Shown here: piece after piece, positions 50,222 to 62,387 of the stretch
Layout of the letters: every line of letters starts with the position of its first letter
Numbering within the stretch: position 1 is the stretch's first letter
From: Planctomycetota bacterium
Lineage (GTDB): Bacteria > Planctomycetota > UBA8108 > SXIK01
Direction: 5' to 3'
Assembly: GCA_965223265.1 (NCBI GenBank)
Contig: OZ244999.1
Span: 7,392,001 to 7,456,000, forward strand
DNA length: 64,000 nt
Translations under genes and position numbers: made by a program
The notes under the pieces: generated by a model
Database searches by the model: none
What the model was told of the DNA's origin: nothing
The model's input: the letters and a program-made list of their open reading frames with translations, nothing else

Positions 50222-50335
50222 GTGTCCGGTACGCTTCTGACTCGGTATCGGTATCTGCCTCTGACTCTGACTCCGTATCCGTATCCGCCTCTGCCTCTGG
50301 CTCTGACTCCGTATCTGTTTCCGTATCTGTCTCGT
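50222..50335 (+). repeat. Left flank of cassette A: 36-bp direct repeat followed by degenerate 6-nt-period TCYGNN repeats
   Basis: gtgtccggtacgcttctgactcggtatcggtatctg (50222-50257) recurs at 50961-50996; then tctgac/tccgta/tctgcc units. Confidence 0.9.
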
Positions 50336-50339
50336 CGTC

Positions 50340-50370
50340 AAAACCCGCCGCGCGAAGTGCTGCACGGCGG
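50340..50370 (-). terminator. Hairpin/terminator after four-helix-bundle gene A
   Basis: Minus strand ccgccgtgc..gcgcggcgg-gtttt; conserved behind copy C (about 59290-59321). Confidence 0.55.
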
Positions 50371-50385
50371 ACCAAGGTTTCCGCG

Positions 50386-50709
50386 TCAGCGCGTCAGTTT
50401 CCAGAGCATTGCCTGCAGCCGATCGATGTCCGCAAGCACCGCAGTTGTCTCCACTGCATCGACGTAGCCCCACGCCTCAGCAACGCGCAGAGCCGTCCGC
50501 ACCTCCTCGGCGCTGCCCGAAGCAATGCGCCAAAGATGGCCGCGGTCACGACCCTGACGCCGATTGCCCTCGCCGAGGTTGAGTGCCACTGAAGAACCCG
50601 CGTCGCGCAGCTGAGCGGCCAGCTTTGAGTCGTGACGACGGATGCTCGAGACAAGGGGACGCAGCTGACGAACGATGCCAAAAGTGTGATCCAGAGCAAG
50701 AAAGCTCAT
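50386..50709 (-). CDS. Four helix bundle protein (Avd / 23S rRNA IVS-like), copy A, 107 aa
   Basis: QLRDAGSSVALNLGEG..RIASGSAEEV matches the QxRRA.xSxxxNIAEG..IARGSxxE family signature; ATG at 50709. Confidence 0.9.
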   Translation of the reverse strand: MSFLALDHTFGIVRQLRPLVSSIRRHDSKLAAQLRDAGSSVALNLGEGNRRQGRDRGHLWRIASGSAEEVRTALRVAEAWGYVDAVETTAVLADIDRLQAMLWKLTR

Positions 50710-50754
50710 GTGTGACTCCGGTAACGGCTGAGCGACCTGTCGCCGACGCCCGAC

Positions 50755-50878
50755 GCGGCGGCGTTTCACTGCCGCCAACCGAACGAGAGACGGGGTCAAG
50801 GGCGCGAAGCGCCGAGCGCAGCGAGGGCACCCTTGAGGCCGGCTCTCGTTCGGTTACGATCGACACAATCGCCGCCGC
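50755..50878 (-). other. Conserved nested-hairpin leader of cassette A
   Basis: Invariant 41-nt core at 50796-50836; stems aaccgaacgagag/ctctcgttcggtt and gcggcggcg/cgccgccgc. Confidence 0.85.
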
Positions 50879-50948
50879 ACGCACGCCATAGCAACCCGCC
50901 GCTTCTCTGCCTGCCTCCGACTCGATCTCCGATTCCGCCTCGGAATGC

Positions 50949-51116
50949 GTGGGCGTGGGAGTGTCCGGTACGCTTCTGACTCGGTATCGGTATCTGGCTC
51001 TGACCCGTGTCTCCGTATCTGCCTCTGACTCTGACTCCGTATCCGTATCCGTATCTGCCTCTGACTCTGACTCCGTATCTGTTTCCGCCTCTGCCTCTGA
51101 ACAGAGGCGGATACGG
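50949..51116 (+). repeat. Right flank of cassette A: second 36-bp direct repeat plus 6-nt-period repeats ending in an inverted copy
   Basis: 50961-50996 is identical to 50222-50257; the tract ends in cagaggcggatacgga, complementary to the repeat units. Confidence 0.88.
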
Positions 51117-51151
51117 ACGCCGGGGACGCAGTCGGGACCGGCTCGTTTCGT

Positions 51152-53677
51152 TCACGGCAGATGGGCGCGGCTGCGGATCAACCACTCCACTAGCAGGATT
51201 CCAAGCACGAGTGACAGCAGCAGTAAAGGGGAATCCCACGCCGTCATGGTTTCGGTGTGGGCGGCGACGCGTGAGTCGCGGTGCCACAATTCGCCACACT
51301 CGTCGGCACGGCTGAGGGGCAGAAAGACGCCGTCGGTCAAGGTGGCGAGCTCCTTGAGAAGTGTGGCATTGCAGCTGAGATCTGAGGACTCGGGGTCATC
51401 TTCCGGGACGACCACAAAGGACACGGTCGCACGCTCCTTCGCTGCGTCGTAGCCAGGCACCGTGGCAGGATCGATGGCCGCATGGAATTCGCGCGCTGCG
51501 AGGGTGTTTTTCTCATCCCCATTCACCCTCGCAGGCTCGCCGTTGCCTACGGACTCGAGTAGCCGCTGCGCGGAAACACGGCCTCGATACCGATGCCCGC
51601 CGCGTTCGACGGGTGCCAGCGTGACGCGCAGCCGCGGAGCTCCGGCGGCACTGGTCGTCGCCGCGTCGACCGTGCTGGCCGTGAGCAGGGCGGTGATGCG
51701 GTCGACGTTCGCCGCGGTGACGTCGTCCTTCAAGACGGTCTCGATCGTGATGTCTTCGTTCGACTCGTAGATCGTCTCGCTAGCGCCAAGGCGCAGCGCA
51801 TCGTCTTCTTCACTCAGCTCGGAGAGCACCGCAAATCGCACAAGTTGCTCCCAGAACCGGGTGTGCAGTCGGTCTCCAATGCGATAACGCCATCGCCAGG
51901 TTGAATCGATTCCGAGATAGATCACGCGACCCGCACCGATGTCGCGGGTCACGAGAACCGCGCCTCGCGAATGCACGAATTCGCGAGCTCGCGCGGCGCG
52001 ATTTCGAACGCCCGCCGCAAACGAGTCGAATCCTCTCAACTTCTTCACATCCCGCACGGCTACGCTCGCCAGGACCTCGGCTCCCTCGACAACACCGTCA
52101 ACCGGTGAAAGCCATAGATGGGCTGGGAGAAGCTCCCACAACTCGACGTTGCGTTCGCGATCGGTCAGAAGGCGTGTGATGGGAGATCTTTCGCCAGCAG
52201 GTGTCAACTCGAGGCTCAACCCCTCGCGCGCGGTCACGAAGCCAAGCTGCGTCGACGGCAGCGGATCGACGGGTCGGATCGGTAGTAGATCAGCCAGCGG
52301 CGTTGCGAGCCACGCGTATGGCATGTGCTGCGGTCCCGCCAACAACATCAGGGTGCCGCCGCGCTCAGTGACGAAGTCGTTGAGTAGTCTTTTCAGCTCT
52401 CGCGACATCACGTCGGGTGACACGTCACCGAGGATCAAGAGCGTGTGCTCGAACAGCCCCTCTCGCGTGGTGGGAAATTCCGGCGGCAACACGTCGTTCG
52501 GTGCCGCTGCGAGCAAAAGCGTCTCGGCGTCAAAGCGTTCATCGCGCTGCCAGCGAGCCCGAAGATAGCGCCAGTCCCATCGCGGTCGACCCTCCAGATA
52601 GAGGACTCGCGCTGGGCCTTCCACCACGTCGACCCACAGTTCACGCGTGTTGTTGTCGGCGGTGATCTCCCCGGGCTCCGCCGGCACACTGACGACAAAC
52701 TTCTTACGACCTGCCGCGCCAGGATCGAATGCAACCGATACGCCCATTGTTCCACCCCCGTCGGGCACGGTCAGTCTCTGTTCGAAGATCGTTTCGTCCT
52801 CACGTCGCACGATCACATCCAGAGGAGTGCCTGCGTCAAACCCATTAACTCTGAGAGTCACATGCGCCTTGACGCTCTCACCGACCAAGAGACGGCGATC
52901 AGCGTCGATCCGGAGTAGGTCGACGTCCCGAGGCGGATCGATCGGCCCCACGCCAATGGCAGCAACCGGCGCGTTGAGCGCCGCAATGCGTTCGAAGGCT
53001 GCAGCAAGATCGTCAGGCGAGTGATGCCTGCCGTCGGTGACAAGCAACACGCCGGCAAGTCGCCGCCGATCTGCGAGCCGCATCAGCTCCGCGGCCAAAG
53101 GGGAGCCGAGATGCGTCCCCCCCGCCGCCCGCAGTGAATCCATCGCAGCCTGCTGCTCGGCCGCGTTGTCGCCGGGAAGCGGTGTGACATGGTCGGCGAG
53201 GGCGTAGAACTCTACATCGAAATCCCTCACCAGATCCTGCCACCAGCGCGTCGTAAAGAGTCGACGTGCGCGCTCGAGGCGCGTTGATCGACGCACGCGC
53301 TCGAGGACGACACGACTGGATTCGTCGATGTCGTGCTCGGACGCCGCGAGCTTTTCGGTCGGCAGATACTCCAGCACGGCCGCCTCACCGCGCACGGCGG
53401 CAGACGATTGCTGCGGATCGGTGAGGCCGAAGCTGGCGGAGGCGTCGAGCATCACCGCCAGAGTTGAGTGTTCGACTCGCCGCCGCTCACGCTGCCAACT
53501 CGGATTGGCGAGCAACGTGACGACGACAGCAATGAGCACGAGACGCGTCCCCGTGATGGCGATCGCGACTCCAGCGCCGCTAGCCCGCCGCTCACGCCCA
53601 CCCAGCGAGTATGCCAAACCCGCGGCACAGGCGAGCAGGACAACTACCCACTGAAGGCTCAGACCGGGGTCACTCAT
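51152..53677 (-). CDS. vWA-domain membrane protein with GATase-like domain (MoxR-associated)
   Basis: MIDAS VMLDASASF, LVTDG, IGVG, VLYLEGRPRWDWRYL, DSTWRWR, C-terminal EWLIR TM. Confidence 0.85.
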   Translation of the reverse strand: MSDPGLSLQWVVVLLACAAGLAYSLGGRERRASGAGVAIAITGTRLVLIAVVVTLLANPSWQRERRRVEHSTLAVMLDASASFGLTDPQQSSAAVRGEAAVLEYLPTEKLAASEHDIDESSRVVLERVRRSTRLERARRLFTTRWWQDLVRDFDVEFYALADHVTPLPGDNAAEQQAAMDSLRAAGGTHLGSPLAAELMRLADRRRLAGVLLVTDGRHHSPDDLAAAFERIAALNAPVAAIGVGPIDPPRDVDLLRIDADRRLLVGESVKAHVTLRVNGFDAGTPLDVIVRREDETIFEQRLTVPDGGGTMGVSVAFDPGAAGRKKFVVSVPAEPGEITADNNTRELWVDVVEGPARVLYLEGRPRWDWRYLRARWQRDERFDAETLLLAAAPNDVLPPEFPTTREGLFEHTLLILGDVSPDVMSRELKRLLNDFVTERGGTLMLLAGPQHMPYAWLATPLADLLPIRPVDPLPSTQLGFVTAREGLSLELTPAGERSPITRLLTDRERNVELWELLPAHLWLSPVDGVVEGAEVLASVAVRDVKKLRGFDSFAAGVRNRAARAREFVHSRGAVLVTRDIGAGRVIYLGIDSTWRWRYRIGDRLHTRFWEQLVRFAVLSELSEEDDALRLGASETIYESNEDITIETVLKDDVTAANVDRITALLTASTVDAATTSAAGAPRLRVTLAPVERGGHRYRGRVSAQRLLESVGNGEPARVNGDEKNTLAAREFHAAIDPATVPGYDAAKERATVSFVVVPEDDPESSDLSCNATLLKELATLTDGVFLPLSRADECGELWHRDSRVAAHTETMTAWDSPLLLLSLVLGILLVEWLIRSRAHLP

Positions 53678-53981
53678 TGAACTGATATAGGGTCTTCCGT
53701 ATCAAGAGGTCGCCGCGACAGCTCCTGGCCCGCCGCTCCCATCGCGGCGATGAATATCCTCTGGAAAAGAATGGAGACATTATCGTCACTTGCGTCTATG
53801 CAAGGCTATCATCTCTCCGACAAACGGCCGATCACATCATGAGACGGCTATTCGTGGCGACGATATACCTGCGCGGTGGAGACTCGATGCCGGCGAGTTC
53901 TCGGCCGACTGACAGCGCTGCGGGCAGCGAATTCACGGACGAAACACCGGTGAACCGAACGCGAGGAGGAGCCCCTATCAG

Positions 53982-56900
53982 GTGACTGCGTCCAAACCGA
54001 ATACTCTTGCGGCTCTCCTGACGACGCAGTTTCTCGGCGCGTTCAACGACAACGCCTGGAAGATGGTGGCGATTCTTCTCGGCACCCGCGTCGCAAGCGA
54101 CGCGGACCGTCTCGCCGAGAGCAGTCGGCAGTGGACGCTTGCATTCGTCGCCTTCAGCGTGCCATACCTGATTCTATCGCTTCCCGCGGGATCGTTGGCA
54201 GACCGCGTCAGCAAGCGTACTGTGCTGATTGTGGCCAAAGCGGTCGAGATGGCACTCATGATCGCGGGGCTGGCTGTCCTCGTCTTGGCGCCGAATGAGC
54301 CGTGGCTTCTCCTTGGCATCCTCGCCTGCATGGGGGCGCAGTCGGCACTTCTTGGACCCGCAAAGTACGGCATCGTGCCAGAACTCGTGCCGCACTCGCG
54401 GCTCTCGTCGGCGAACGGACAAATCGAGCTCTGGACCTTTGCGGCGATCGTTCTCGGCACTGCGGGAGGTGGCGTCCTTCTCGATCTCAGCGAGACTGCC
54501 ACCGACGGAGTGTGGCTCGTCGGCATCGCCCTTGTGGTTCTAGCCGCCGTCGGACTCGCCGCCTCGCGTCGCGTACCGCACGTTCCAGCGGTCGGCAGCC
54601 GTGAACCACTCGTCGCGACCGTCCACGGTGCATGGAATTCCATTCGTTCCGAACGCATTCTCTGGCTGACCGTTCTAGGGCTCACATTCTATTGGGGAAT
54701 CATTTCGCTTGTCGGTCAAGTGATCGGCATCTACGTGCAGAACGATCTCAAAGCGACGGACGCGCAGGCCGGACTACCGCTGGCGATCTTCGGTGTCGGT
54801 GTCGGTGTCGGCAGCCTGTTCGCCGGGCACTTTTCGCGCGGCAAGGTCGAGTCGGGACTGATCCCATTTGGTGCCCTTGGCCTGGCAACGACACTCGTGC
54901 TCATGGGAAATCTGCCGCCCGAGTCCGTCAGCACGATGCTGCCGTGGGCCTTCGCGATGGGGTTTGCGAGCGGACTCATGATTGTGCCGCTCAACGCACT
55001 CCTGCAGTGGCGCTCACCGGAGAATCGTCGCGGCGCGATTATCGCGCTGTCGAACGTCTTCGTATCGGTCGGCATCATCGCGGGCTCCTTGAGCTCCAAC
55101 CTCCTATCAGCCTGGGGCAACACGGCGAGCTCGAGCATTCTGAGCGCCGGCGTCCTCACCGTCATCGGGTCTCTTTGGTCGCTCTGGATCCTACCAAGCG
55201 CGTTTCTTCGCCTGCTCCTGCTCCTCCTGACGAACACGCTCTACCGACTCAAGATTCTCGGACGGGCTAATGTGCCCGAAACCGGTGGCGCACTTCTCGT
55301 CCCGAACCACGTCTCGTTCGCCGACGGTTTGTTTCTCATCGCCAGTGTCGATCGGCCGATTCGATTCATCGTCGACGCGAACTACTTCCATCATCCAGTG
55401 CTTAAGCCGTTCATGAAGTCGCTTGGAGCCATCCCAATCACGGCAGCAGGCGGCCCACGGGTGGTCTTGCGTGCGCTCCGTGACGCAGGGGAATACTTGG
55501 AGCAAGGGCACCTGGTGTGCATCTTCGCCGAGGGACAAATTACGCGCACCGGCATGCTGCTCCCGTTTCGCCGCGGACTCGAGCGCATCGTCAAAGGCCG
55601 GAATGTGCCCATCATTCCGGTCCACCTTGATGGCGCCTGGGGCAGCGTCTTTAGCCGCTCGGGCGGGCGCTTCTTGCTGAAGATTCCGCAACGAGTCCCG
55701 TATCCGATCACGGTGACGTTCGGGGAAACCCTCGACCCAGGCACGAGGGTCGCAGATATCAGACGGTCCGTGCACGAGCTCAGCGAAGTCGCGTGGCGCA
55801 GTCGCACCTCAGAGCGGCGTCCACTGCACCATTCCTACATCAAGCGCGCGCGGCGCCGCCCGCTGCGACTAATCTTCGCGGATGCAACGAAGCCGAAAGT
55901 GACTGGGTTCGCTTCCCTGGTCGGAGCCATCGCCTTGGCTCGAGCACTACGCCGACACTGGCCCGGAAGCGAACGCGTTGGTATTCTTCTGCCCTCGTCG
56001 GTCGCTGGAGCGTTGACCAACATCGCTGCGACCATGGCTGGAAAAACCAGCGTCAACCTAAACTTCACCACCGGACAGTCAAGCTTCGAGTCAGCGATTC
56101 GCCAGTCGGGACTGAAAAGCGTAGTGACGAGTCGACAGATGCTGGAGAAGGTCCAGCTGACAATTCCAGAAGGCGTCACCACAGTGTGGTTAGAAGATGT
56201 TCACAAGAACATCGGCGTCGGGGCCAAATTGTTTGCCTTCATGATTGCTGCGTTGGCACCGACGCGTGTCGTCGAGCGCGCATGCGGATCTGAGAAGAAG
56301 ATCACCGGCGGCGACACGGTAACGATCATCTTTAGCAGCGGCAGTACCGGAGAACCAAAGGGCGTTATGCTCACCCACGCGAACATCGATGCGAACGTCG
56401 AAGGCGTCGCCCAAGTGACCCGTGTCAACGCCGACGATTGTTTGATCGGACTCCTTCCTCTATTCCACTCATTCGGATACATGGCGCTCTGGTTCGCGGC
56501 GAATCGCCGTCTAGCGACCGTGTTTCATCCCAACCCGTTGGACGCCGGCATGGTGGGCGAGCTCGTCCACCGCTACAGCGTCTCGCTCCTGATCGCCACC
56601 CCAACCTTCCTGCAGCTCTACCTACGGCGCTGCACGCCGGCCCAGTTCGGCTCACTGAGGCTTGTACTGGTCGGCGCAGAAAAGCTATCTGACCGTTTGG
56701 CGCTGGCTTTCGAAGAACAGTTCGGCATCCGTCCCGTAGAGGGCTACGGAGCGACGGAGTGCTCGCCGGCGATCACGGTGAGCGCAGGAGACTATCGCGC
56801 CCCAGGTTTCTTCCAGCCTGGCTCGCGCCGTGGATCTGTGGGCCAACCGCTACCCGGCGTGGCTGTCCGTATCGTAAACCCTGACAGCCGAGAAGAACTG

Positions 56901-57413
56901 CCTTTCGGCGAAGCAGGGTTGATCCTCGTCAAGGGTCCCAACGTCATGCAGGGCTATCTGGGACGCGACGACCTGACCGAAGAGGCGATGAAGGATGGCT
57001 GGTACGTCACAGGTGACATCGGGGTGATGGACGAAGACGGCTTTCTTCGCATCACGGATCGCCTCTCTCGGTTTTCGAAGATTGGTGGAGAGATGGTCCC
57101 GCACGGACGCGTCGAGGCCGCCCTCCAAGAAGCTGCCGGAGAGGACATGCAGGTCTTCGCTGTGACGTCCATCGTCGACGATCGAAAGGGTGAAAAACTC
57201 ATCGTACTCCACACCCTCGACGAAGACCGGATTCCGAAGATCGTTGAACAGCTCGCTCAAGCGGGGCTCCCGAATCTGTTTGTGCCACGGCCGGACCAGT
57301 TCCTCAAGGTTGAAACCCTCCCCGTGTTGGGCACGGGCAAGCTCGATCTACGTGCGATCAAGACCATCGCCGAGGAGGCGTTCGCGCCGTCGACAGCCGC
57401 GGGCGATCGTTAG
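53982..57413 (+). CDS. aas: Acyl-ACP--phospholipid O-acyltransferase / acyl-ACP synthetase fused to an LplT-like MFS domain
   Basis: TQFLGAFNDN MFS start, PlsC NHVSFAD and FAEG, AMP-binding FSSGSTGEPKGV, EGYGATE, DRLSRFSKIGGEMV. Confidence 0.93.
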   Translation: MTASKPNTLAALLTTQFLGAFNDNAWKMVAILLGTRVASDADRLAESSRQWTLAFVAFSVPYLILSLPAGSLADRVSKRTVLIVAKAVEMALMIAGLAVLVLAPNEPWLLLGILACMGAQSALLGPAKYGIVPELVPHSRLSSANGQIELWTFAAIVLGTAGGGVLLDLSETATDGVWLVGIALVVLAAVGLAASRRVPHVPAVGSREPLVATVHGAWNSIRSERILWLTVLGLTFYWGIISLVGQVIGIYVQNDLKATDAQAGLPLAIFGVGVGVGSLFAGHFSRGKVESGLIPFGALGLATTLVLMGNLPPESVSTMLPWAFAMGFASGLMIVPLNALLQWRSPENRRGAIIALSNVFVSVGIIAGSLSSNLLSAWGNTASSSILSAGVLTVIGSLWSLWILPSAFLRLLLLLLTNTLYRLKILGRANVPETGGALLVPNHVSFADGLFLIASVDRPIRFIVDANYFHHPVLKPFMKSLGAIPITAAGGPRVVLRALRDAGEYLEQGHLVCIFAEGQITRTGMLLPFRRGLERIVKGRNVPIIPVHLDGAWGSVFSRSGGRFLLKIPQRVPYPITVTFGETLDPGTRVADIRRSVHELSEVAWRSRTSERRPLHHSYIKRARRRPLRLIFADATKPKVTGFASLVGAIALARALRRHWPGSERVGILLPSSVAGALTNIAATMAGKTSVNLNFTTGQSSFESAIRQSGLKSVVTSRQMLEKVQLTIPEGVTTVWLEDVHKNIGVGAKLFAFMIAALAPTRVVERACGSEKKITGGDTVTIIFSSGSTGEPKGVMLTHANIDANVEGVAQVTRVNADDCLIGLLPLFHSFGYMALWFAANRRLATVFHPNPLDAGMVGELVHRYSVSLLIATPTFLQLYLRRCTPAQFGSLRLVLVGAEKLSDRLALAFEEQFGIRPVEGYGATECSPAITVSAGDYRAPGFFQPGSRRGSVGQPLPGVAVRIVNPDSREELPFGEAGLILVKGPNVMQGYLGRDDLTEEAMKDGWYVTGDIGVMDEDGFLRITDRLSRFSKIGGEMVPHGRVEAALQEAAGEDMQVFAVTSIVDDRKGEKLIVLHTLDEDRIPKIVEQLAQAGLPNLFVPRPDQFLKVETLPVLGTGKLDLRAIKTIAEEAFAPSTAAGDR

Positions 57414-57481
57414 CGCCAGCTGGAATTTGGCCATTCGGCGCGCCAAGGCGGTAAGCGCTGCGCGTGCGCGTGGGCGTGGGA

Positions 57482-57521
57482 GTGAGAGCGGTGTGAGAGC
57501 GGTGTGAGAGCGGTGTGAGAG
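57482..57521 (+). repeat. 11-nt tandem repeat (GTGAGAGCGGT) x3 plus partial
   Basis: Read directly from the sequence. Confidence 0.9.
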
Positions 57522-57710
57522 TCGGCGTGGGCGATCGCGTGGCGCGTGGGGTTTCCTAAACTAGCGGGTGCACGCCGAGGCTGTGAATCTTTTGGGACGT
57601 GCCCTCGAAACTTACGGTCACGGTCCGGACGACACACGTCACCGTGTGCCGTCCGCTCTTGCGAGAGCGAGAGGGGGAGTCCGTGTGGGAGTGGGAGGGG
57701 GAGTGGGAGG

Positions 57711-58348
57711 GGGAGTCCGTGTGGGAGTCCGTGTGGGAGGGGGTGCGCGCCTCTTCAACGTGGCAGGCACACGCCGTGTGCCGTCCGGCCTTGTCGGCGT
57801 GCGCGTCGGCCGTTCCCGTGGGTGTGGGAGTCCGTGTGGGAGTCCGTGTGGGAGGGGGTGCGCGCCTCTTCAACGTGGCAGGCACACGCCGTGTGCCGTC
57901 CGGCCTTGTCGGCGTGCGCGTCGGCCGTTCCCGTGGGTGTGGGAGTCCGTGTGGGAGTCCGTGTGGGAGGGGGTGCGCGCCTCTTCAACGTGGCAGGCAC
58001 ACGCCGTGTGCCGTCCGGCCTTGTCGGCGTGCGCGTCGGCCGTTCCCGTGGGTGTGGGAGTCCGTGTGGGAGTCCGTGTGGGAGGGGGTGCGCGCCTCTT
58101 CAACGTGGCAGGCACACGCCGTGTGCCGTCCGGCCTTGTCGGCGTGCGCGTCGGCCGTTCCCGTGGGTGTGGGAGTCCGTGTGGGAGTCCGTGTGGGAGG
58201 GGGTGCGCGCCTCTTCAACGTGGCAGGCACACGCCGTGTGCCGTCCGGCCTTGTCGGCGTGCGCGTCGGCCGTTCCCGTGGGTGTGGGAGTCCGTGTGGG
58301 AGTCCGTGTGGGAGTCCGTGTGGGAGTCCGTGTGGGAGTCCGTGTGGG
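57711..58348 (+). repeat. Tandem array of 5 identical 115-bp units, ending in (GTGTGGGAGTCC) x5
   Basis: ctcttcaacg recurs at 57751, 57866, 57981, 58096 and 58211; each unit has 12-mers plus the palindrome ggcacac-gcc-gtgtgcc. Confidence 0.95.
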
Positions 58349-58363
58349 TTGGGGTCACCGTAC

Positions 58364-58484
58364 GGCGGCGGTCTTGTCGAGCTTACGCGGTGCTCAGAAC
58401 TGTCAAGGGTGCCCTCGCTGCGCTCGGCGCTTCGCGCCCTTGACAGTTCCTCCGCTCCGCGTTGGGGGGTGGAGTACCGCCGCC
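58364..58484 (+). other. Conserved nested-hairpin leader of cassette B
   Basis: Invariant 41-nt core at 58403-58443; stems gaactg/cagttc, acgcgg/ccgcgt, ggcggcggt/accgccgcc. Confidence 0.85.
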
Positions 58485-58526
58485 CGGATGCGGCGGGCTC
58501 TTGACTCACCGTTTCGGAGGTCTCTC

Positions 58527-58850
58527 ATGCGCTTCATCGCTCTCGATGTCAGTCTCGGTTTGATTCGCGATTTGCGGGCTCCACTGCTGCGGCTTCGGAG
58601 GCTTGATCCCGATCTCCATCGGCAGATTCGGCGGGCTGCTTCTTCGGTCGCGCTCAATCTCTCCGAGGGTGCCGAGCGCGCTGGGAAAGACCGGCTGCAC
58701 CTCTACCGCGTTGCGCGCGGCAGTGCCCGGGAGGTCGAGACTGCCCTGCAGCTCTCTGTGGCCTGGGGCGATCTCAAGTGCGAAGACGTCTCAGCGCCTC
58801 TCCAGACCCTCGATCGACTCCTAGCTCTTCTCAGCGGCCTCACGCGCTGA
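58527..58850 (+). CDS. Four helix bundle protein, copy B, 107 aa
   Basis: SD ggagg, ATG at 58527; QIRRAASSVALNLSEG..RVARGSAREV. Confidence 0.9.
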   Translation: MRFIALDVSLGLIRDLRAPLLRLRRLDPDLHRQIRRAASSVALNLSEGAERAGKDRLHLYRVARGSAREVETALQLSVAWGDLKCEDVSAPLQTLDRLLALLSGLTR

Positions 58851-58862
58851 GCGAGACTACTG

Positions 58863-58890
58863 AGCGCCCGCTACTTTCGTAGCGGGCGCT
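58863..58890 (+). terminator. 12-bp perfect hairpin after gene B
   Basis: agcgcccgctac-tttc-gtagcgggcgct; no T-tract follows. Confidence 0.55.
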
Positions 58891-58915
58891 GCTCACGGCG
58901 ACTTCTGGATCTGAT

Positions 58916-59290
58916 TCTGACTCTGTCATCTGGTTCTGTATTTCTATCCGTCTCTGATTCTGTCCCGACAGTTGCATAAGTTTTCGCAGGAAGGGCTCAG
59001 AAACCCTTTCCCTGAGGTTCGATCGGCAGTCGAAGGACGTCGCGGCGGACCTCACGTTTGGTGAGGTTGACGGTGTGCCGTGTTCCCTCTCGCCCACGCA
59101 CACCCACACGCAAACGCACACGCAAACTCTCACTCAACCGCAATCGCGCACGGTCTTAAGGCGCGTCTCTTTTGCAACGTTGGGGTCTGACTCTGTAATC
59201 TGGTTCTGTATCTCTATCCGCCATCCGTCTCTGATTCTGTCTCTGACTCCGGTTCCGTCCCCGTCTCTCCCTCTGCCTCTCCCCCACCTC
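58916..59290 (+). repeat. Low-complexity spacer between B and C with a duplicated ~50-bp 6-nt-period block
   Basis: tctgactctgt(c/a)atctggttctgtat(t/c)tctatccg..tctctgattctgtc at 58916-58964 and 59186-59241. Confidence 0.8.
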
Positions 59291-59337
59291 AAAACCCGCC
59301 GCGCCAAAAAAAGCACGGCGGCCCCAAGACCCAAAGC

Positions 59338-59661
59338 TCAGCGCGTCAGCTTCCAAAGCATCGCCTGCAGCTCGTCGATGTCCGCAAGCACCGAAGCTGT
59401 CTCCTGCGCATCGACGTAGCCCCAAGCCTCAGCAACACGGAGCGCCGTACGCACCTCTTCGGCACTGCCTGAAGCGACACGCCAAAGGTGCCCGCGGTCA
59501 CGACCAGAGCGCCGATTGCCCTCGCCCAAATTCAGCGCCACGGAGGACCCCGCGTCGCGCAGCTGAGCGGCAAGCTTCGAGTCGTGACGACGCACACGCG
59601 AGACAAGCGGACGCAACTGACGAACGATACCAACAGAGTGATCCAAAGCGAGAAAGCCCAT
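59338..59661 (-). CDS. Four helix bundle protein, copy C, 107 aa
   Basis: Differs from copy A at 11 of 107 residues (counted by eye); same family signature. Confidence 0.9.
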   Translation of the reverse strand: MGFLALDHSVGIVRQLRPLVSRVRRHDSKLAAQLRDAGSSVALNLGEGNRRSGRDRGHLWRVASGSAEEVRTALRVAEAWGYVDAQETASVLADIDELQAMLWKLTR

Positions 59662-59710
59662 GAGCGACTCCAGTCAACCGGTTGAGTGAAACTCTCGCCG
59701 CACGCCCGAC

Positions 59711-59834
59711 GCGGCGGCGTTTCACCCCCGCCAACGGAAGCAGAGTCGGGGTCAAGGGCGCGAAGCGCCGAGCGCAGCGAGGGCACCCTTGAGGCCGGCT
59801 CTGCTTCGGTTACGCTCGACAATACCGCCGCCGC
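59711..59834 (-). other. Conserved nested-hairpin leader of cassette C
   Basis: Invariant core at 59752-59792; stems gaagcagag/ctctgcttc and gcggcggcg/cgccgccgc. Confidence 0.85.
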
Positions 59835-59860
59835 AAACGCCCCTTGGCGGCACACCTCTT

Positions 59861-59992
59861 CTCTGCTTCTGTCTCTGCTTCTGTCTCTGCTTCTGTCTCT
59901 GCTTCTGTCTCTGCTTCTGTCTCTGCTTCTGTCTCTGCTTCTGTCTCTGCTTCTGTCTCTGCTTCTGTCTCTGCTTCTGTCTCTGCTTCTGT
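59861..59992 (+). repeat. Perfect 12-nt tandem repeat (CTCTGCTTCTGT) x11
   Basis: Read directly from the sequence. Confidence 0.97.
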
Positions 59993-60104
59993 CTCTGTCT
60001 CCGACTCACTAGGCGTCGACGTCTGCTTGACCTCTGAATCGCGGTGAACTCCGCAGGTCAGACGGGCGCGAATGGCTGCCAGACTCGCTAGACCCAAGGA
60101 CAGG

Positions 60105-62387
60105 TCACGATGACGGATTCGGCGGCACCAACAGCCGACTACACGCGAGCTCGCACACCAACAGGATCAGCACCGCGCCGATCAAGAACGGCCAGTACTC
60201 TTGCCGGGCCGCCGCATCGACACTCACCTCGAGCGGCGTGTTCACGTTCGTCTCAACCTCGAAACCCGCAGCCTCTCGAATCGTTCTTAGCGCGTCGTCG
60301 GCGACTCGCTCGAGTCTCGACTCCGCGACTGGAAAATTCACGGCGTACCACTCGACCGCGTCTACATCGCCGAGCTCACCACCGAGGTGCGCAGCATAAA
60401 AACCCGGCGTCGCGGTGGCATTCACTCGCCCGATGAGGCGCCCTGACTCGAACTCTATTTCGAGCGCAAGCTTGGTGCCGTTCGGGTCAACGACATAGGA
60501 GGCTTCCGCACGTCGATGGGCGCTCAAGTCGAATCGCAGTGGCTCTCCGCAGGTCACATGTCGCCCAGCAAACGACCGGTGAGCAGCATGACGAACGACT
60601 TGGTGCAGTAGCGGCAGGAAGAGCGGGGTGCGCGGCAGCGGCGTCTCTAGCGGCTCAGGTGCCGACGCGAACAGAATCACCCGGCCGTCACCGTACTCCT
60701 TCTCGATCAGCCACGGACTCACTTCACCGCCGTGCGAGTTGCTGATGAGCCGTTTGGCATCAGATCTAACCTCTTCGAAGACCGTCCAGCGCAGCACCGA
60801 GACACGGTCCAGATCGCCCTGGTCCGGAGGCGTGAAGGGTGCGAGGGCAGGGTGCTCATCTGCTTCGAGTCGAAGATACCCGCTGCCACCTCCGTCCGCC
60901 TCGACACGACGCGCCAAACGCGCCGGCAGGAAACTACTCTGACGCCGAAATGCGAGCCGGTTCCACGTCTGGCGCGGCAGCTGGCCACCGCAAAACAAGA
61001 TCAAGCCACCGCCGCGACGAACAAACTCCTGCAAACGCAACATCGACGTCCGATCGAGCGTCGGCAAGTCGCAGACGACAACGACGTCGTGTCGGTCTAT
61101 GTCATCCGTCTCTAACGTCGCCGCGAATTCATGACGCAAAGCCGTCGCCGCATGTTCGGCAGCAGAGCCGTTCTCTCCAGGGCGCAGAGCCAGTTCGACG
61201 TACCGGGCAGTACCGATCTCCCGCGGCGTCGTTCCAACCACCAGAACAGAAATCGCGTCGCGGACTAGGAACAATTCGTGACGCCGATTGTCAGCAGCCA
61301 AAGCATCACCGGGAAGCTCAGCGACCAACCGAGTGACACCGCCGGCGTCGAACACGCTTTCGACGGTAGCGACACCGCGGCCTGCTGTGTCGACTGCGAC
61401 GGCCAAGTTCGACAGTTCTTTGATGTTCGTCGCGAGTCGGACACGGAGCGTGTCGCCCGCAGCCGCCCCACCAATCTGCGGTGTCGATTGAGGAAGTGCA
61501 GCCGCAGAACCTGAGCCAGCCGATGGCACCCTAGTCGACGATCGCGCCACACCGACCGTCAACTCGGTCGGTGTGGCTGCCGTCGCAGCCAGGAGTGGGG
61601 TGGACAGGTTCCACAAGAAGTGATTCGTCGCCGTCGAGGCGCCGCAGTCGATGACTCGAAGCGTAGCGAGCGGCAGCCCCTTGCTCTCGAGCTGCGCCTT
61701 CAGAAGCCTCCACTCCGAGACACGCGTCTCGTCGATCACGTTCTCCGCCAGGTCCGAGAAGACCCAGATCTCACGCTTGTCGGACGTTAGAGCACTGAGA
61801 TGAATGGACGCCTCTTCAACCGCGTCGAGCAGCGAGAAGGTAGGCCCATCAGCCGTCAAACGAGCGATGTGATCCCGCGCCTGCTCGCTGCTGACGACCG
61901 CCGTCGGAGGCCGCTGGCCGACTCCCTCCTCCGCGATCCGACCCGCACCGCTGGCCGCGAGCACGACGACCTGATCGAAGGGAGTCAACGATGCGAGGAC
62001 GTCGACGGCTCCACTCCGGGCGCGTTCGAAGCTTGTCGTACCGCTGTCGCTGTCGACGCATGTCATGCTCAGGGACGTGTCGATCACAACAAGCACGCCT
62101 CGAGTGTTTCGAGTCGAGGCAGTTGAGTTTTTGGCGAACGGCCGCATGACGGCGAGAACGACGAATAGGATGATGAGAGTTCGGATCCCGAGTAGGAGAG
62201 CTTCGAGAAGCCGCAATCTCTTGGCGTGACGGCGATGCGCTTGTAGTAAGAACCGAAAGGTCGGCCACGAGACGACGGGAGCGTGATAGCGTCGAAGGAT
62301 GAAAAAGAGCGCCGGAACGAGAACGAAAAGCAGGCACGGAAGGAGGTAGGAATTCTCGAATCGCATCGCCATCAGTTCAAACGTCAC
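60105..62387 (-). CDS. BatA-domain / vWA membrane protein (MoxR-associated)
   Basis: N-terminal BatA double TM (WPTFRFL..LLLGIRTL..RP), MIDAS IDTSLSM, FSDL, C-terminal TM YWPFL. Confidence 0.85.
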   Translation of the reverse strand: MTFELMAMRFENSYLLPCLLFVLVPALFFILRRYHAPVVSWPTFRFLLQAHRRHAKRLRLLEALLLGIRTLIILFVVLAVMRPFAKNSTASTRNTRGVLVVIDTSLSMTCVDSDSGTTSFERARSGAVDVLASLTPFDQVVVLAASGAGRIAEEGVGQRPPTAVVSSEQARDHIARLTADGPTFSLLDAVEEASIHLSALTSDKREIWVFSDLAENVIDETRVSEWRLLKAQLESKGLPLATLRVIDCGASTATNHFLWNLSTPLLAATAATPTELTVGVARSSTRVPSAGSGSAAALPQSTPQIGGAAAGDTLRVRLATNIKELSNLAVAVDTAGRGVATVESVFDAGGVTRLVAELPGDALAADNRRHELFLVRDAISVLVVGTTPREIGTARYVELALRPGENGSAAEHAATALRHEFAATLETDDIDRHDVVVVCDLPTLDRTSMLRLQEFVRRGGGLILFCGGQLPRQTWNRLAFRRQSSFLPARLARRVEADGGGSGYLRLEADEHPALAPFTPPDQGDLDRVSVLRWTVFEEVRSDAKRLISNSHGGEVSPWLIEKEYGDGRVILFASAPEPLETPLPRTPLFLPLLHQVVRHAAHRSFAGRHVTCGEPLRFDLSAHRRAEASYVVDPNGTKLALEIEFESGRLIGRVNATATPGFYAAHLGGELGDVDAVEWYAVNFPVAESRLERVADDALRTIREAAGFEVETNVNTPLEVSVDAAARQEYWPFLIGAVLILLVCELACSRLLVPPNPSS

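What the first reader, a model, noticed from the sequence alone, without database searches (positions are those of the whole stretch)
58403..58443. Invariant 41-nt core forms a branched structure with two GNA triloops on the non-coding strand, suggesting an ssDNA signal
Seen: TCAAGGGTGCCCTCGCTGCGCTCGGCGCTTCGCGCCCTTGA at 58403-58443, and its reverse complement at 50796-50836 and 59752-59792. On the template strand it folds as TCAAGGG/CCCTTGA closing two mini-hairpins, GCGC-GAA-GCGC and CC-GA-GC-GCA-GC-GA-GG (tandem G.A mismatch). Known: d(GCGNAGC) triloops and tandem sheared G.A pairs are exceptionally stable in DNA specifically. From memory (to be verified), CCGAGCGCAGCGAG also occurs in the ColE1/pBR322 primosome-assembly region. 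Inference: the element is read as folded ssDNA (nicking, priming or recombination site) rather than as an mRNA leader.
Basis: partly seen in the sequence, partly recalled or inferred. Interest (0 to 1): 0.8.

Follow-up and report, generated by a model that had tools for sequence, protein, structure and literature searches.

The report
Conserved three-way hairpin cap before small genes
The 41-base motif is the branched tip of a long hairpin that sits in front of every one of about 38 small four-helix-bundle genes in this genome; the same tip also caps other hairpin elements in many bacterial phyla, but the evidence favours folding on the gene's own strand, not the opposite strand.

Summary
The 41-nt core is exact at 58403-58443(+), 50796-50836(-) and 59752-59792(-); none is expected by chance. 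The genome holds 39 copies at <=6 mismatches.

The branched fold is supported. On 72 distinct cores the three-way junction pairs 98.8% of cells, with compensatory changes in two helices. The thermodynamic alternative fails.

The core caps a ~140-nt hairpin 80-91 nt upstream of PF05635 four-helix-bundle (4HB) genes. It matches no Rfam family, and I found no paper holding its sequence.

GNA loops on the non-coding strand are the majority state, not a rule: 42/55 and 37/55.

The strand inference fails for the whole hairpin. Arm wobble pairs favour the mRNA strand 147:37 in four 4HB-linked lineages, and that strand folds better in 45/45 hairpins as RNA.

The same module caps integron attC sites, with the GNA version on the recombining bottom strand. 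It also caps many gene-less hairpins.

Best reading: an orientation-independent hairpin cap, used here in an mRNA leader. Earlier notes of this scan described 4HB cassettes on other DNA, but not this cap.

The parts
58403..58443 (+). 41-nt core (three-way-junction cap), subfamily B copy
   Evidence: Exact match; junction model supported by covariation.
50796..50836 (-). 41-nt core, subfamily A copy
   Evidence: Exact match.
59752..59792 (-). 41-nt core, subfamily A copy
   Evidence: Exact match.
58356..58493 (+). Whole leader hairpin B: outer GC-rich stem, middle stem, core at the apex
   Evidence: Covariance-model match G000:C1:7450356-7450493, 143.6 bits; fold; compensatory changes between subfamilies in the middle stem.
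50744..50884 (-). Whole leader hairpin A
   Evidence: Model match G000:C1:7442744-7442884, 152.7 bits.
59700..59840 (-). Whole leader hairpin A
   Evidence: Model match G000:C1:7451700-7451840, 152.5 bits.
58527..58850 (+). 107-aa four-helix-bundle gene B; its ATG lies 83 nt after the core
   Evidence: PF05635 E=3.7e-13; TIGR02436 E=7.1e-14.
50386..50709 (-). 107-aa four-helix-bundle gene A
   Evidence: PF05635 E=3.5e-14; TIGR02436.
59338..59661 (-). 107-aa four-helix-bundle gene A
   Evidence: PF05635 E=8.5e-15; TIGR02436.
58282..58348 (+). 12-nt tandem array (GTGTGGGAGTCC x5.6) directly upstream of hairpin B
   Evidence: TRF; sequence.
59860..59997 (-). 12-nt tandem array (CAGAGACAGAAG x11.5) directly upstream of hairpin A
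   Evidence: TRF; sequence.
50975..51100 (-). Hexamer-based array upstream of the solo cassette A; about 100 nt of it recurs as a direct repeat downstream of the gene (about 50225-50335)
   Evidence: TRF; sequences.
58864..58889 (+). Perfect 10-bp hairpin just after gene B; no T-run follows it
   Evidence: Sequence; no terminator-like site called by the scan.

Best explanation
The 41-nt core is a conserved three-way-junction cap at the tip of a ~140-nt hairpin that forms the 5' leader of each small four-helix-bundle (4HB) gene cassette. In these cassettes the hairpin most likely works as RNA on the gene's own strand.

Inferred mechanism: the cassette lies downstream of a host gene and has no recognisable promoter, so the hairpin is transcribed. 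Its roughly 24 bp of nearly continuous helix then acts as a processing, stability or insulation element. Double-strand-specific cleavage by an RNase III-type enzyme is my preferred mechanism. It would parallel the 23S rRNA intervening sequences in which this protein family was first found, and it would separate the 4HB message from read-through transcripts.

The cap itself appears to be an orientation-independent structural module that closes and nucleates long hairpins. The same module caps integron attC sites and many gene-less hairpins in other phyla.

Shown here: the structure, its covariation, the strand asymmetry, the fixed position before the gene, and the distribution. Inferred: transcription through the hairpin, cleavage, and any effect on expression.
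For: (1) Position. 38 PF05635 matches in the genome. Nearly every one of the 39 cores lies 80-91 nt upstream on the same strand.

(2) Other lineages. 13 of 63 genome-contig loci have a 4HB ORF on the same strand just downstream. They come from three MAGs labelled Planctomycetota, Polyangiaceae and 'bacterium'.

(3) Structure. Middle-stem pairs switch compensatorily between subfamilies A and B. The junction model pairs 98.8% of cells, with 29 both-side-changed cells against 4.7 in shuffles.

(4) Strand, by arm oppositions. G.U-type on the mRNA strand versus on the other strand: own 97:24, G007 33:10, Polyangiaceae 13:2, Co_bin 4:1. Hairpins in other contexts give 43:44.

(5) Strand, by energy. 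The whole-hairpin RNA minimum free energy is lower on the mRNA strand in 29/29, 11/11, 3/3 and 2/2 of these lineages, by 11-13 kcal/mol. The same computation picks the known functional (bottom) strand in 14/14 module-bearing attC sites with RNA parameters and 12/14 with DNA parameters.

(6) No sigma-70-like promoter in 57400-60110. The cassette block lies downstream of two convergent genes. In relative G001, a homologue of the AMP-binding/MFS gene (65% identity) and a more distant BatA-like gene (32% identity, orthology uncertain) also converge, less than 50 nt apart.
Against: - No RNA data exist for this organism, so transcription of the hairpin is not shown.
- The junction alone is computed to be more stable on the opposite strand.
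- On the mRNA strand of the window's own copy a different fold is predicted to win, -22.4 against -10.2 kcal/mol.
- Part of the mRNA-strand advantage is compositional. Shuffled sense sequence also folds better, and the z-score is slightly better for the antisense strand (-4.04 against -3.07).
- The four 4HB-linked lineages share ancestry and are not independent.
- A first, stricter wobble count showed only 56:39, and a within-genome paralogue test was inconclusive.
- In two MAG loci the same hairpin lies antisense to, and about 130 nt upstream of, an IS30-type transposase gene. Outside these lineages I found no 4HB gene beside most copies: 1 of 65 by my HMM and 0 of 23 downstream ORFs by Pfam.
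- DNA-level events cluster at the core: five insertions of a serine-recombinase element exactly at its 5' edge, plus several truncations.
- Subfamilies A and B show opposite, near-complete orientation biases relative to replication. An RNA-only model does not explain this.
Confidence: 0.45

Rival explanations
1. The hairpin is a structure-specific DNA site. It is extruded as a hairpin or cruciform from single-stranded or supercoiled DNA and is used for recombination or movement of the 4HB cassette, as integron attC sites are. The cap nucleates and stabilises the fold.
For: - The same module sits at the tip (variable terminal structure) of some attC sites in gammaproteobacterial cassette arrays. 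An integron integrase is present in 3 of 4 of those genomes.
- Published attC biology matches the purine-rich, GAA-type loops and the asymmetry in folding energy (PMC5027507, passages).
- Rearrangement breakpoints and five serine-recombinase insertions lie at the core.
- The cassette block is an insertion relative to G001.
- The subfamily-specific replication-orientation bias (A 17/17 co-directional, B 17/21 head-on) points to a DNA-level process.
- With DNA parameters one strand is also favoured: sense in 26/29 own copies.
Against: - No integron integrase over the cut-off in this genome.
- Copies are dispersed, not arrayed.
- There is no terminal RYYYAAC/GTTRRRY box. The stem continues beyond the AAC/GTT pair, and subfamily B lacks AAC.
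- The hairpin lies wholly inside the repeated unit, not at a junction.
- The favoured strand is the gene's sense strand, the opposite of attC.
- No cognate recombinase was identified.
Confidence: 0.25
2. One reading: the non-coding strand folds as ssDNA with two GNA triloops and a tandem G.A pair, and serves as a nicking or priming signal of the ssi / primosome-assembly type.
For: - GNA in 42/55 (loop a) and 37/55 (loop b) cores, with all four middle bases seen.
- The junction is more stable on that strand.
- 13/14 identity of hairpin a to ColE1 1330-1343, where the difference falls on the loop's middle base.
Against: - Loop exceptions include ATG, ACG, AGG, GTC and 4-nt loops.
- Arm wobble pairs and whole-hairpin energy favour the other strand.
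- The core has no orientation bias relative to replication (22:17).
- The sites are 39 chromosomal intergenic positions, not origins.
- Nearest-neighbour folding does not return the junction as the minimum-energy fold on either strand.
- The ColE1 match is short and was found post hoc.
Confidence: 0.07
3. The cap has no sequence-specific function. It is a selfish or neutral palindromic module that spreads between hairpin elements by recombination and horizontal transfer, and is kept uniform within genomes by gene conversion.
For: - It occurs in at least four unrelated contexts, in both orientations relative to neighbouring genes.
- In attC arrays only some sites carry it.
- One relative (G021) has lost the tip of hairpin a.
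- Copies within the genome are near-identical while the arms differ.
Against: - Compensatory changes keep all helices paired.
- The loops keep their flanking bases while the middle base varies.
- Exact 25-nt degenerate matches in MAGs labelled as at least eight phyla suggest constraint beyond drift.
Confidence: 0.15
4. The primary role is as a double-stranded DNA attachment site (attB) for site-specific recombinases such as the 702-aa large serine recombinase element.
For: - Five identical ~2.7-kb inserts abut T1 of the core. Their ORF has Resolvase, Recombinase and Zn_ribbon_recom domains.
- An intact copy has the same mismatched arms as a filled one, which looks like an empty site and a filled site.
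Against: - Only 5 of 39 copies are occupied.
- Stem covariation is not needed for a dsDNA site.
- This looks like a parasite exploiting a conserved multicopy target.
Confidence: 0.05

Closest known systems
Variable terminal structure (VTS) of integron attC sites
   Same: - It is the tip of a long imperfect hairpin.
- It has purine-rich GAA-type triloops on one strand and an asymmetry in folding energy between the strands.
- Branched tips are known in chromosomal integrons (PMC5027507, passages read).
- The very same sequence module is present in attC tips of gammaproteobacterial arrays.
   Different: - This genome has no integron integrase, no cassette array and no terminal R box.
- The hairpin precedes rather than follows its gene.
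- The more stable strand is the coding strand, not the bottom strand.
ORF-bearing intervening sequences (IVS) of 23S rRNA (Coxiella, Leptospira; S23p / PF05635)
   Same: - It carries a gene of the same protein family next to a long stem that would be a double-strand RNase substrate.
- It behaves as a small selfish cassette.
- Source: PMC4990558, abstract seen in the search listing; the rest is from my own knowledge.
   Different: - It is not inside an rRNA gene.
- The stem is a self-contained hairpin 5' of the ORF, not a pairing of the two ends around the ORF.
- It has a conserved three-way cap and flanking hexamer arrays.
d(GCGNAGC)-type GNA mini-hairpins and tandem sheared G.A pairs
   Same: On the non-coding strand, hairpin a reads CC-GA-GC-GNA-GC-GA-GG and hairpin b reads C-GNA-G in most cores. 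The exceptional stability of such DNA hairpins is recalled knowledge, not tested here.
   Different: - 13/55 and 18/55 cores break the rule.
- The standard energy models used here do not reproduce the fold.
- Arm asymmetry points to the other strand.
REP/BIME-type and other intergenic palindromic repeats
   Same: - It is a multicopy intergenic hairpin found between convergent genes.
- Gene-less copies exist in many genomes.
- It is a target for insertion elements.
   Different: - It is much longer, with a branched conserved apex and variable, covarying arms.
- In this genome it is tied one-to-one to a gene.
- No link to a RAYT gene was tested.
ColE1/pMB1 primosome-assembly (PriA n') region
   Same: 13 of 14 nt of hairpin a match ColE1 1330-1343.
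   Different: - It is a short match only, without the closing C-G pair in ColE1.
- It is not at an origin.
- It has no replication-strand bias.
- The function of that ColE1 stretch is recalled, not checked here.

Membership tests
Integron attC site | Terminal inverse-core/core boxes (RYYYAAC ... GTTRRRY) forming the base of the hairpin | tested here: not met
   Subfamily A and G007 copies have GTAAC...GTTG about 20 nt from the core, but the stem continues with a 9-bp GC helix beyond it. Subfamily B has TAC, not AAC.
Integron attC site | Occurs in same-orientation cassette arrays next to an integron integrase | tested here: not met
   Copies are dispersed over the chromosome. The best TIGR02249 match is 96 bits against a cut-off of 265. 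By contrast, type-2 loci in other genomes do meet this feature.
Integron attC site | Bottom strand (antisense to the cassette ORFs) folds more stably and carries purine-rich unpaired parts | tested here: inconclusive
   The apex is more stable on the antisense strand, but the whole hairpin is more stable on the sense strand: 26/29 with DNA parameters, 29/29 with RNA parameters.
Single-strand initiation / primosome-assembly site | Supports priming on ssDNA | not testable with these tools
   Needs an M13 ssi assay or a PriA binding assay.
Single-strand initiation / primosome-assembly site | Consistent orientation with respect to the replication fork or an origin | tested here: not met
   22 copies co-directional and 17 head-on, using origin and terminus inferred from GC skew.
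Any Rfam RNA family | Covariance-model match at or near the gathering score | tested here: not met
   0 matches at gathering over the window. Only two chance microRNA hits at E<=1 in 50300-60200, neither on the motif. Only tRNAs in 18 foreign loci. 0 hits at E<=0.1 in 6 further loci.
ORF-bearing 23S rRNA intervening sequence | Inserted in helix 25 or 45 of a 23S rRNA gene | tested here: not met
   The window copies lie between protein-coding genes. No rRNA match in the window.
ORF-bearing 23S rRNA intervening sequence | Carries a PF05635 ORF | tested here: met
ORF-bearing 23S rRNA intervening sequence | Excised from the transcript by RNase III at a long stem | not testable with these tools
   No RNA runs are listed for this organism.
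GNA-triloop DNA mini-hairpin | Loop G-N-A closed by C-G, with G and A fixed and the middle base free | tested here: inconclusive
   On the antisense strand, loop a is GNA in 42/55 cores (middle base G 21, A 10, T 7, C 4 as read on the sense strand) and loop b in 37/55. Exceptions exist in both loops.

The most novel reading that the evidence does not exclude
The three-way junction is a portable, orientation-independent hairpin-capping module. It has been exchanged between unrelated hairpin elements in at least eight phyla: integron attC sites, four-helix-bundle cassette leaders, IS-linked hairpins and gene-less palindromes. It could be a tiny selfish element that invades hairpin tips, or a fold nucleator read by a conserved host factor. 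If so, this would link the puzzling 23S-IVS protein family to structure-specific DNA recombination sites.
Probability: 0.25. Interest if true: 0.8.

Novelty: new variant of a known kind. Interest (0 to 1): 0.62.

Why it matters
The four-helix-bundle / 23S-IVS protein family is widespread, multicopy and functionally unexplained. Here each gene carries a defined, strongly conserved nucleic-acid structure that can be synthesised and tested for cleavage, protein binding and effects on expression.

The same cap in integron attC tips and in many gene-less hairpins suggests a shared structural solution for folding long palindromes. It gives a concrete sequence handle (a 25-nt degenerate pattern) for finding such elements in metagenomes.

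The exact integration of a large serine recombinase at the cap's edge also offers a natural attB/attP pair.

Tried and rejected
- **Rfam.** Four searches found nothing on the motif.
- **RNA evidence.** No RNA holder was listed for this stretch, so I did not lay reads.
- **First wobble count.** It required isolated mismatches and gave 56:39. The within-genome paralogue test was inconclusive, because truncated and recombinant copies add noise. The full count replaced both.
- **Nearest-neighbour folding.** Folding the 47-nt core region as RNA and as DNA on both strands did not return the covariation-supported junction as the minimum-energy fold. Folding of 156 nt on both strands was likewise not decisive.
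- **RNAalifold interior fold.** Its consensus for the core interior was rejected by counting.
- **Hexamer-array polarity.** I looked for a fixed G/C polarity of hexamer arrays relative to replication and found none: 91 against 88 arrays far from cassettes, 26 against 32 near them.
- **Upstream gene orientation.** Crude gene calling gave 23 co-oriented and 16 opposed, 5 of the latter being the recombinase insert. The caller missed at least one real gene, so I give this little weight.
- **Retro-element idea.** The genome has only four identical RT genes, none beside a cassette.
- **Integron idea for this genome.** No integrase over the cut-off.
- **4HB genes in genomes with gene-less hairpins.** 12 4HB loci from four of five genomes searched showed no significant match to model R1.
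- **Downstream ORFs in metagenome junction loci.** 0 of 23 were PF05635. My own HMM found a 4HB ORF next to 1 of 65 junction loci. That HMM was built from this lineage's proteins and may miss distant members.
- **Promoter and terminator scan.** Nothing was called. The consensus may not fit this phylum.
- **Taxonomic reach of model R1.** The order holds only 21 genomes, and 38 of 41 genomes searched (G000 included) had no match. The wide distribution therefore rests on exact-pattern scans that fix most of P1 and hairpin a. Conservation of those positions cannot be read from those sets.
- **Papers.** For PMC5027507 I read found passages only. For PMC10910872 I read one figure-legend passage. PMC4990558 and the other listed papers I saw only as search listings with abstract starts. 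I did not ask for supplements.
- **Not in print.** This claim rests on (six 16-mers, 0 papers; family names).
Full report
**Observation.** The 41-nt string is present exactly at 58403-58443(+), 50796-50836(-) and 59752-59792(-), with no match in 100 shuffles. The window lies in a 9.18-Mb, 60.8% G+C single-contig genome. That genome holds 34 copies at <=3 mismatches, against 0 for the reversed control pattern, and 39 copies at <=6 mismatches.

**Immediate context.**
- Almost every copy lies 80-91 nt upstream, on the same strand, of a 107-aa ORF. The three window ORFs match PF05635 (23S rRNA intervening-sequence protein) and TIGR02436 (four-helix-bundle protein).
- The genome has 38 PF05635 matches, essentially one per core.
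- There are two subfamilies. A proteins begin MSFLALDH or MGFLALDH; B proteins begin MRFIALDV. They share the invariant core but have different arms.
- The core is the apex of a ~140-nt hairpin with an outer GC-rich stem, a middle stem and a 7-bp closing stem. Middle-stem pairs change compensatorily between A and B, for example columns 49/125, 50/124, 53/121 and 62-64/110-112.
- Every copy is preceded by tandem arrays based on 6-nt units.
- The solo cassette at 50386-51100(-) is flanked by direct repeats of such an array.
- Many copies form convergent A-> <-B pairs.
- In relative G001, a homologue of the AMP-binding/MFS gene (65% identity) and a more distant BatA-like gene (32% identity) also converge, less than 50 nt apart. 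If that site is orthologous, the 2.7-kb block of arrays and cassettes in the window is an insertion.

**Structure of the core.** I built covariance model R1 from 22 own copies, leaving the core interior unpaired.
- Among 40 relatives, R1 found 12 copies in G007 (same order, another family), 1 copy in G021 (same class) and none in the other 38.
- In those copies hairpin b gains a base pair that covaries: CGC/GCG here, CGAC/GTCG in G007, CGCC/GGCG in G021. The G021 copy has lost 8 nt from the tip of hairpin a.
- I aligned 72 distinct cores from pattern scans. The three-way-junction model pairs 98.8% of cells. Both-side changes occur at 6-38 (2 rows), 7-37 (13 rows) and 28-34 (14 rows). No shuffle out of 500 reached the observed pairing or covariation score.
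- The alternative fold returned by RNAalifold and by minimum-energy folding fails at 9-35 (38 of 72 unpaired), 10-34 (48 of 55) and 18-23 (43 of 72).
One caveat applies: the scans fixed most of P1 and hairpin a, so only the R positions, their partners and hairpin b could vary.

**Distribution.**
- An exact scan of species-representative genomes with TCAAGRRTNCCCTCGCTNNGCTCGG gave 63 loci. The MAGs are labelled Acidobacteriota (several orders), Planctomycetota, Myxococcota, Thermodesulfobacteriota, Beta- and Gammaproteobacteria, Lentisphaeria, Hydrogenedentota and Brocadiaceae, plus one 'Halobacteria'.
- I saw four contexts:
  1. Leaders of 4HB genes: 13 of the 63 loci, from three MAGs, always on the same strand.
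  2. Long hairpins with no 4HB gene found beside them, the majority. By my HMM, 1 of 65 metagenome junction loci has a 4HB ORF nearby. 0 of 23 downstream ORFs are PF05635. 12 4HB loci in four of five genomes searched show no match to R1.
  3. Two loci where the hairpin lies about 130 nt upstream of, and antisense to, an IS30-type transposase gene.
  4. Gammaproteobacterial loci in which the module sits at the tip of integron attC sites.

**The attC context.**
- Repeats of the form TAAC-AAATCACTCCTGCCGAC ... GGCAGAGTTCAACC-GTTA recur every 0.4-1.3 kb in one orientation.
- ORFs run on the same strand and end at each repeat.
- An integron integrase scores over the family cut-off in 3 of the 4 genomes.
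- Only some sites in an array carry the module. There the connectivity is permuted: helix b is open and P1 is closed by a second hairpin of the same TC-GC-loop-GC-TC type.
- On the coding (top) strand the module reads as on the 4HB sense strand, so the bottom strand carries the GNA / G.A version.
- Nivina et al. 2016 (PMC5027507, passages read) make three relevant statements. Only the bottom strand is efficiently recombined as folded ssDNA. Most mobile-integron attC sites have 5'-GAA-3' as the bottom-strand terminal loop. The bottom strand folds 2.12 kcal/mol better on average.
- My computation agrees for these sites: the bottom strand is more stable in 12 of 14 (DNA parameters) and 14 of 14 (RNA parameters).

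I used 55 unique junction cores from the scan that left loop a free.
- Loop a reads G-N-A on the non-coding strand in 42, with all four middle bases. It reads A-N-A in 5 and something else in 8.
- Loop b reads G-N-A in 37 of 55. The rest include ATG, GTG, AAA, ATT, TGA and 4-nt loops.
- GNA is therefore the preferred state but not a rule. Relatedness of the copies inflates the majority.

**Which strand?**
- For the junction alone, the covariation-supported structure has lower computed energy on the non-coding strand in 72 of 72 cores (RNA parameters, mean -2.8 kcal/mol) and 71 of 72 (DNA parameters, -0.9).
- For the whole hairpin the opposite holds wherever a 4HB gene follows. As RNA the sense strand is more stable in 29/29 own copies, 11/11 G007, 3/3 Polyangiaceae and 2/2 Co_bin copies, by 11-13 kcal/mol. 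With DNA parameters it is more stable in 26/29 own copies.
- I also counted transition-type oppositions in the arms. G.U on the sense strand versus on the antisense strand is 97:24, 33:10, 13:2 and 4:1 in these four lineages, but 43:44 in the other contexts.
- Part of this is compositional: shuffled sense sequence also folds better, and the z-scores are -3.07 (sense) and -4.04 (antisense). The lineages also share ancestry.
- Even so, the sign is constant although the arm sequences differ.

**Other DNA-level tests.**
- Relative to replication (origin about 7.94 Mb and terminus about 3.54 Mb by cumulative GC skew), the core is co-directional 22 times and head-on 17 times.
- This genome has no integron integrase over the cut-off.
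- The four RT genes lie elsewhere.
- No sigma-70-like promoter or intrinsic terminator is called in 57400-60110.
- No RNA runs are listed.

**DNA-level events at the core.**
- Five copies have an identical ~2.72-kb insert between the left arm and T1 of the core. The junctions are ...TG|TGAAGTCGAGCAC... and ...CCCGTGG|TCAAGGG.
- The insert's 702-aa ORF has Resolvase, Recombinase and Zn_ribbon_recom domains.
- An intact copy has the same mismatched arms as a filled one, which looks like an empty site and a filled site.
- Other copies are truncated or altered exactly at the core's 3' edge.
- Subfamily A is co-directional with replication in 17 of 17 copies, and subfamily B is head-on in 17 of 21. 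I cannot explain this.

**Interpretation.**
- The observation and the fold are confirmed.
- The module appears in both orientations relative to the strand that is favoured or known to act. In attC sites the GNA version lies on the active bottom strand. In 4HB leaders the pyrimidine version lies on the favoured strand. In the IS30 loci it lies antisense to the gene.
- I therefore read it as a structural cap for long hairpins rather than a strand-specific signal.
- For the cassettes in this window, the fixed position before the ORF, the lack of a recognisable promoter and the arm asymmetry make a sense-strand RNA leader the most likely working form (0.45). Double-strand-specific processing, as for 23S rRNA intervening sequences, is my preferred mechanism; this step is inferred.
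- A structure-specific DNA role like that of attC remains a serious rival (0.25). It is the only model that speaks to the rearrangements and the replication bias.
- The specific ssi / priming reading on the non-coding strand is unlikely (0.07).

**Novelty.**
- The motif matches no Rfam family.
- None of six 16-mers of it occurs in the searchable papers.
- Searches by family name found no description of such a leader.
- Earlier notes of this scan describe hexamer-armed 4HB cassettes in other genomes, and the cassette layout in this window. I found none that reports this cap outside this genome, its covariation, its presence in attC tips or the recombinase insertions. Those notes are AI leads. 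I tested only the cassette layout and the existence of gene-less hairpins.

Noticed in passing
Genome G000:C1 near 2583920, 6781800, 7189139, 8597813 and 8979548 (outside the window); locus L126: Five identical ~2.72-kb elements are inserted exactly between the left hairpin arm and base 1 of the core. Each encodes a 702-aa large serine recombinase (Resolvase, Recombinase and Zn_ribbon_recom domains). An intact copy at 8372035 has the same mismatched arms as the filled copy at 8979548.
   Followed up: partly
Whole genome G000; window copies 50796(-), 58403(+), 59752(-): Subfamily A cassettes are co-directional with replication in 17 of 17 copies, and subfamily B cassettes are head-on in 17 of 21 (origin and terminus from GC skew). 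I have no explanation.
   Followed up: partly
window 57620-58348: Five near-identical 115-bp tandem units lie directly upstream of cassette B. Each holds GGGAGTCCGTGT repeats and a palindrome gtggcaggcacacgccgtgtgccgtcc (REP-like). Earlier notes of this scan also flagged it.
   Followed up: no
window 58890-59330: Between the two convergent 4HB genes lie TCTGAY-type hexamers (the complement of the A-side arrays), a CACGCA/AAACGC array and a unique ~130-nt stretch. The downstream flanks therefore also consist of hexamer arrays.
   Followed up: no
L096 (record titled 'uncultured Halobacteria archaeon'): This contig carries a bacterial-type integron attC array with the module. No integron integrase was found in that genome (G042). 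The contig may be mis-binned.
   Followed up: no
L104 and L108 (MAGs labelled Hydrogenedentota and Pirellulaceae): The same capped hairpin, with conserved flanks of more than 100 nt, lies about 130 nt upstream of and antisense to an IS30-type transposase (HTH_38 + rve). In L104 an IS110-family transposase ends about 125 nt away on the other side.
   Followed up: partly
L140, L164, L174, L239, L243, L066, L089 (metagenome and Acidobacteria loci): Gene-less capped hairpins share further conserved modules on both sides: upstream ...ctagccaggtaaacctgaaagcttccggagcgc..., downstream ...gggcgatgggcggacgggtgggctccggactccggg... These contain complementary CCGGAGC/GCTCCGG segments, which hints at a larger structured element of at least 250 nt. 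Three of these loci (L164, L174, L243), with three related ones, gave no Rfam match at E<=0.1.
   Followed up: partly
L079, L083, L090, L091, L074 (Thermodesulfobacteriota / delta MAGs): Hairpin a (CCC-TC-GC-TTC-GC-TC-GGG), preceded by TCAAGAG, occurs inside a different multicopy repeat bounded by GTCGTTGCGAGGG...CCCTCGCAATGAC.
   Followed up: no
Genome G000:C1 906376, 7190494, 8370685: Three A-type copies have the 3' strand of the closing stem replaced: ...GCGCC TTCTGAGAGTGACCGC(G/A)C CCCG... instead of ...GCGCC CTTGAC CCCG... They keep an intact downstream 4HB gene, or a near-intact one at 906376.
   Followed up: no
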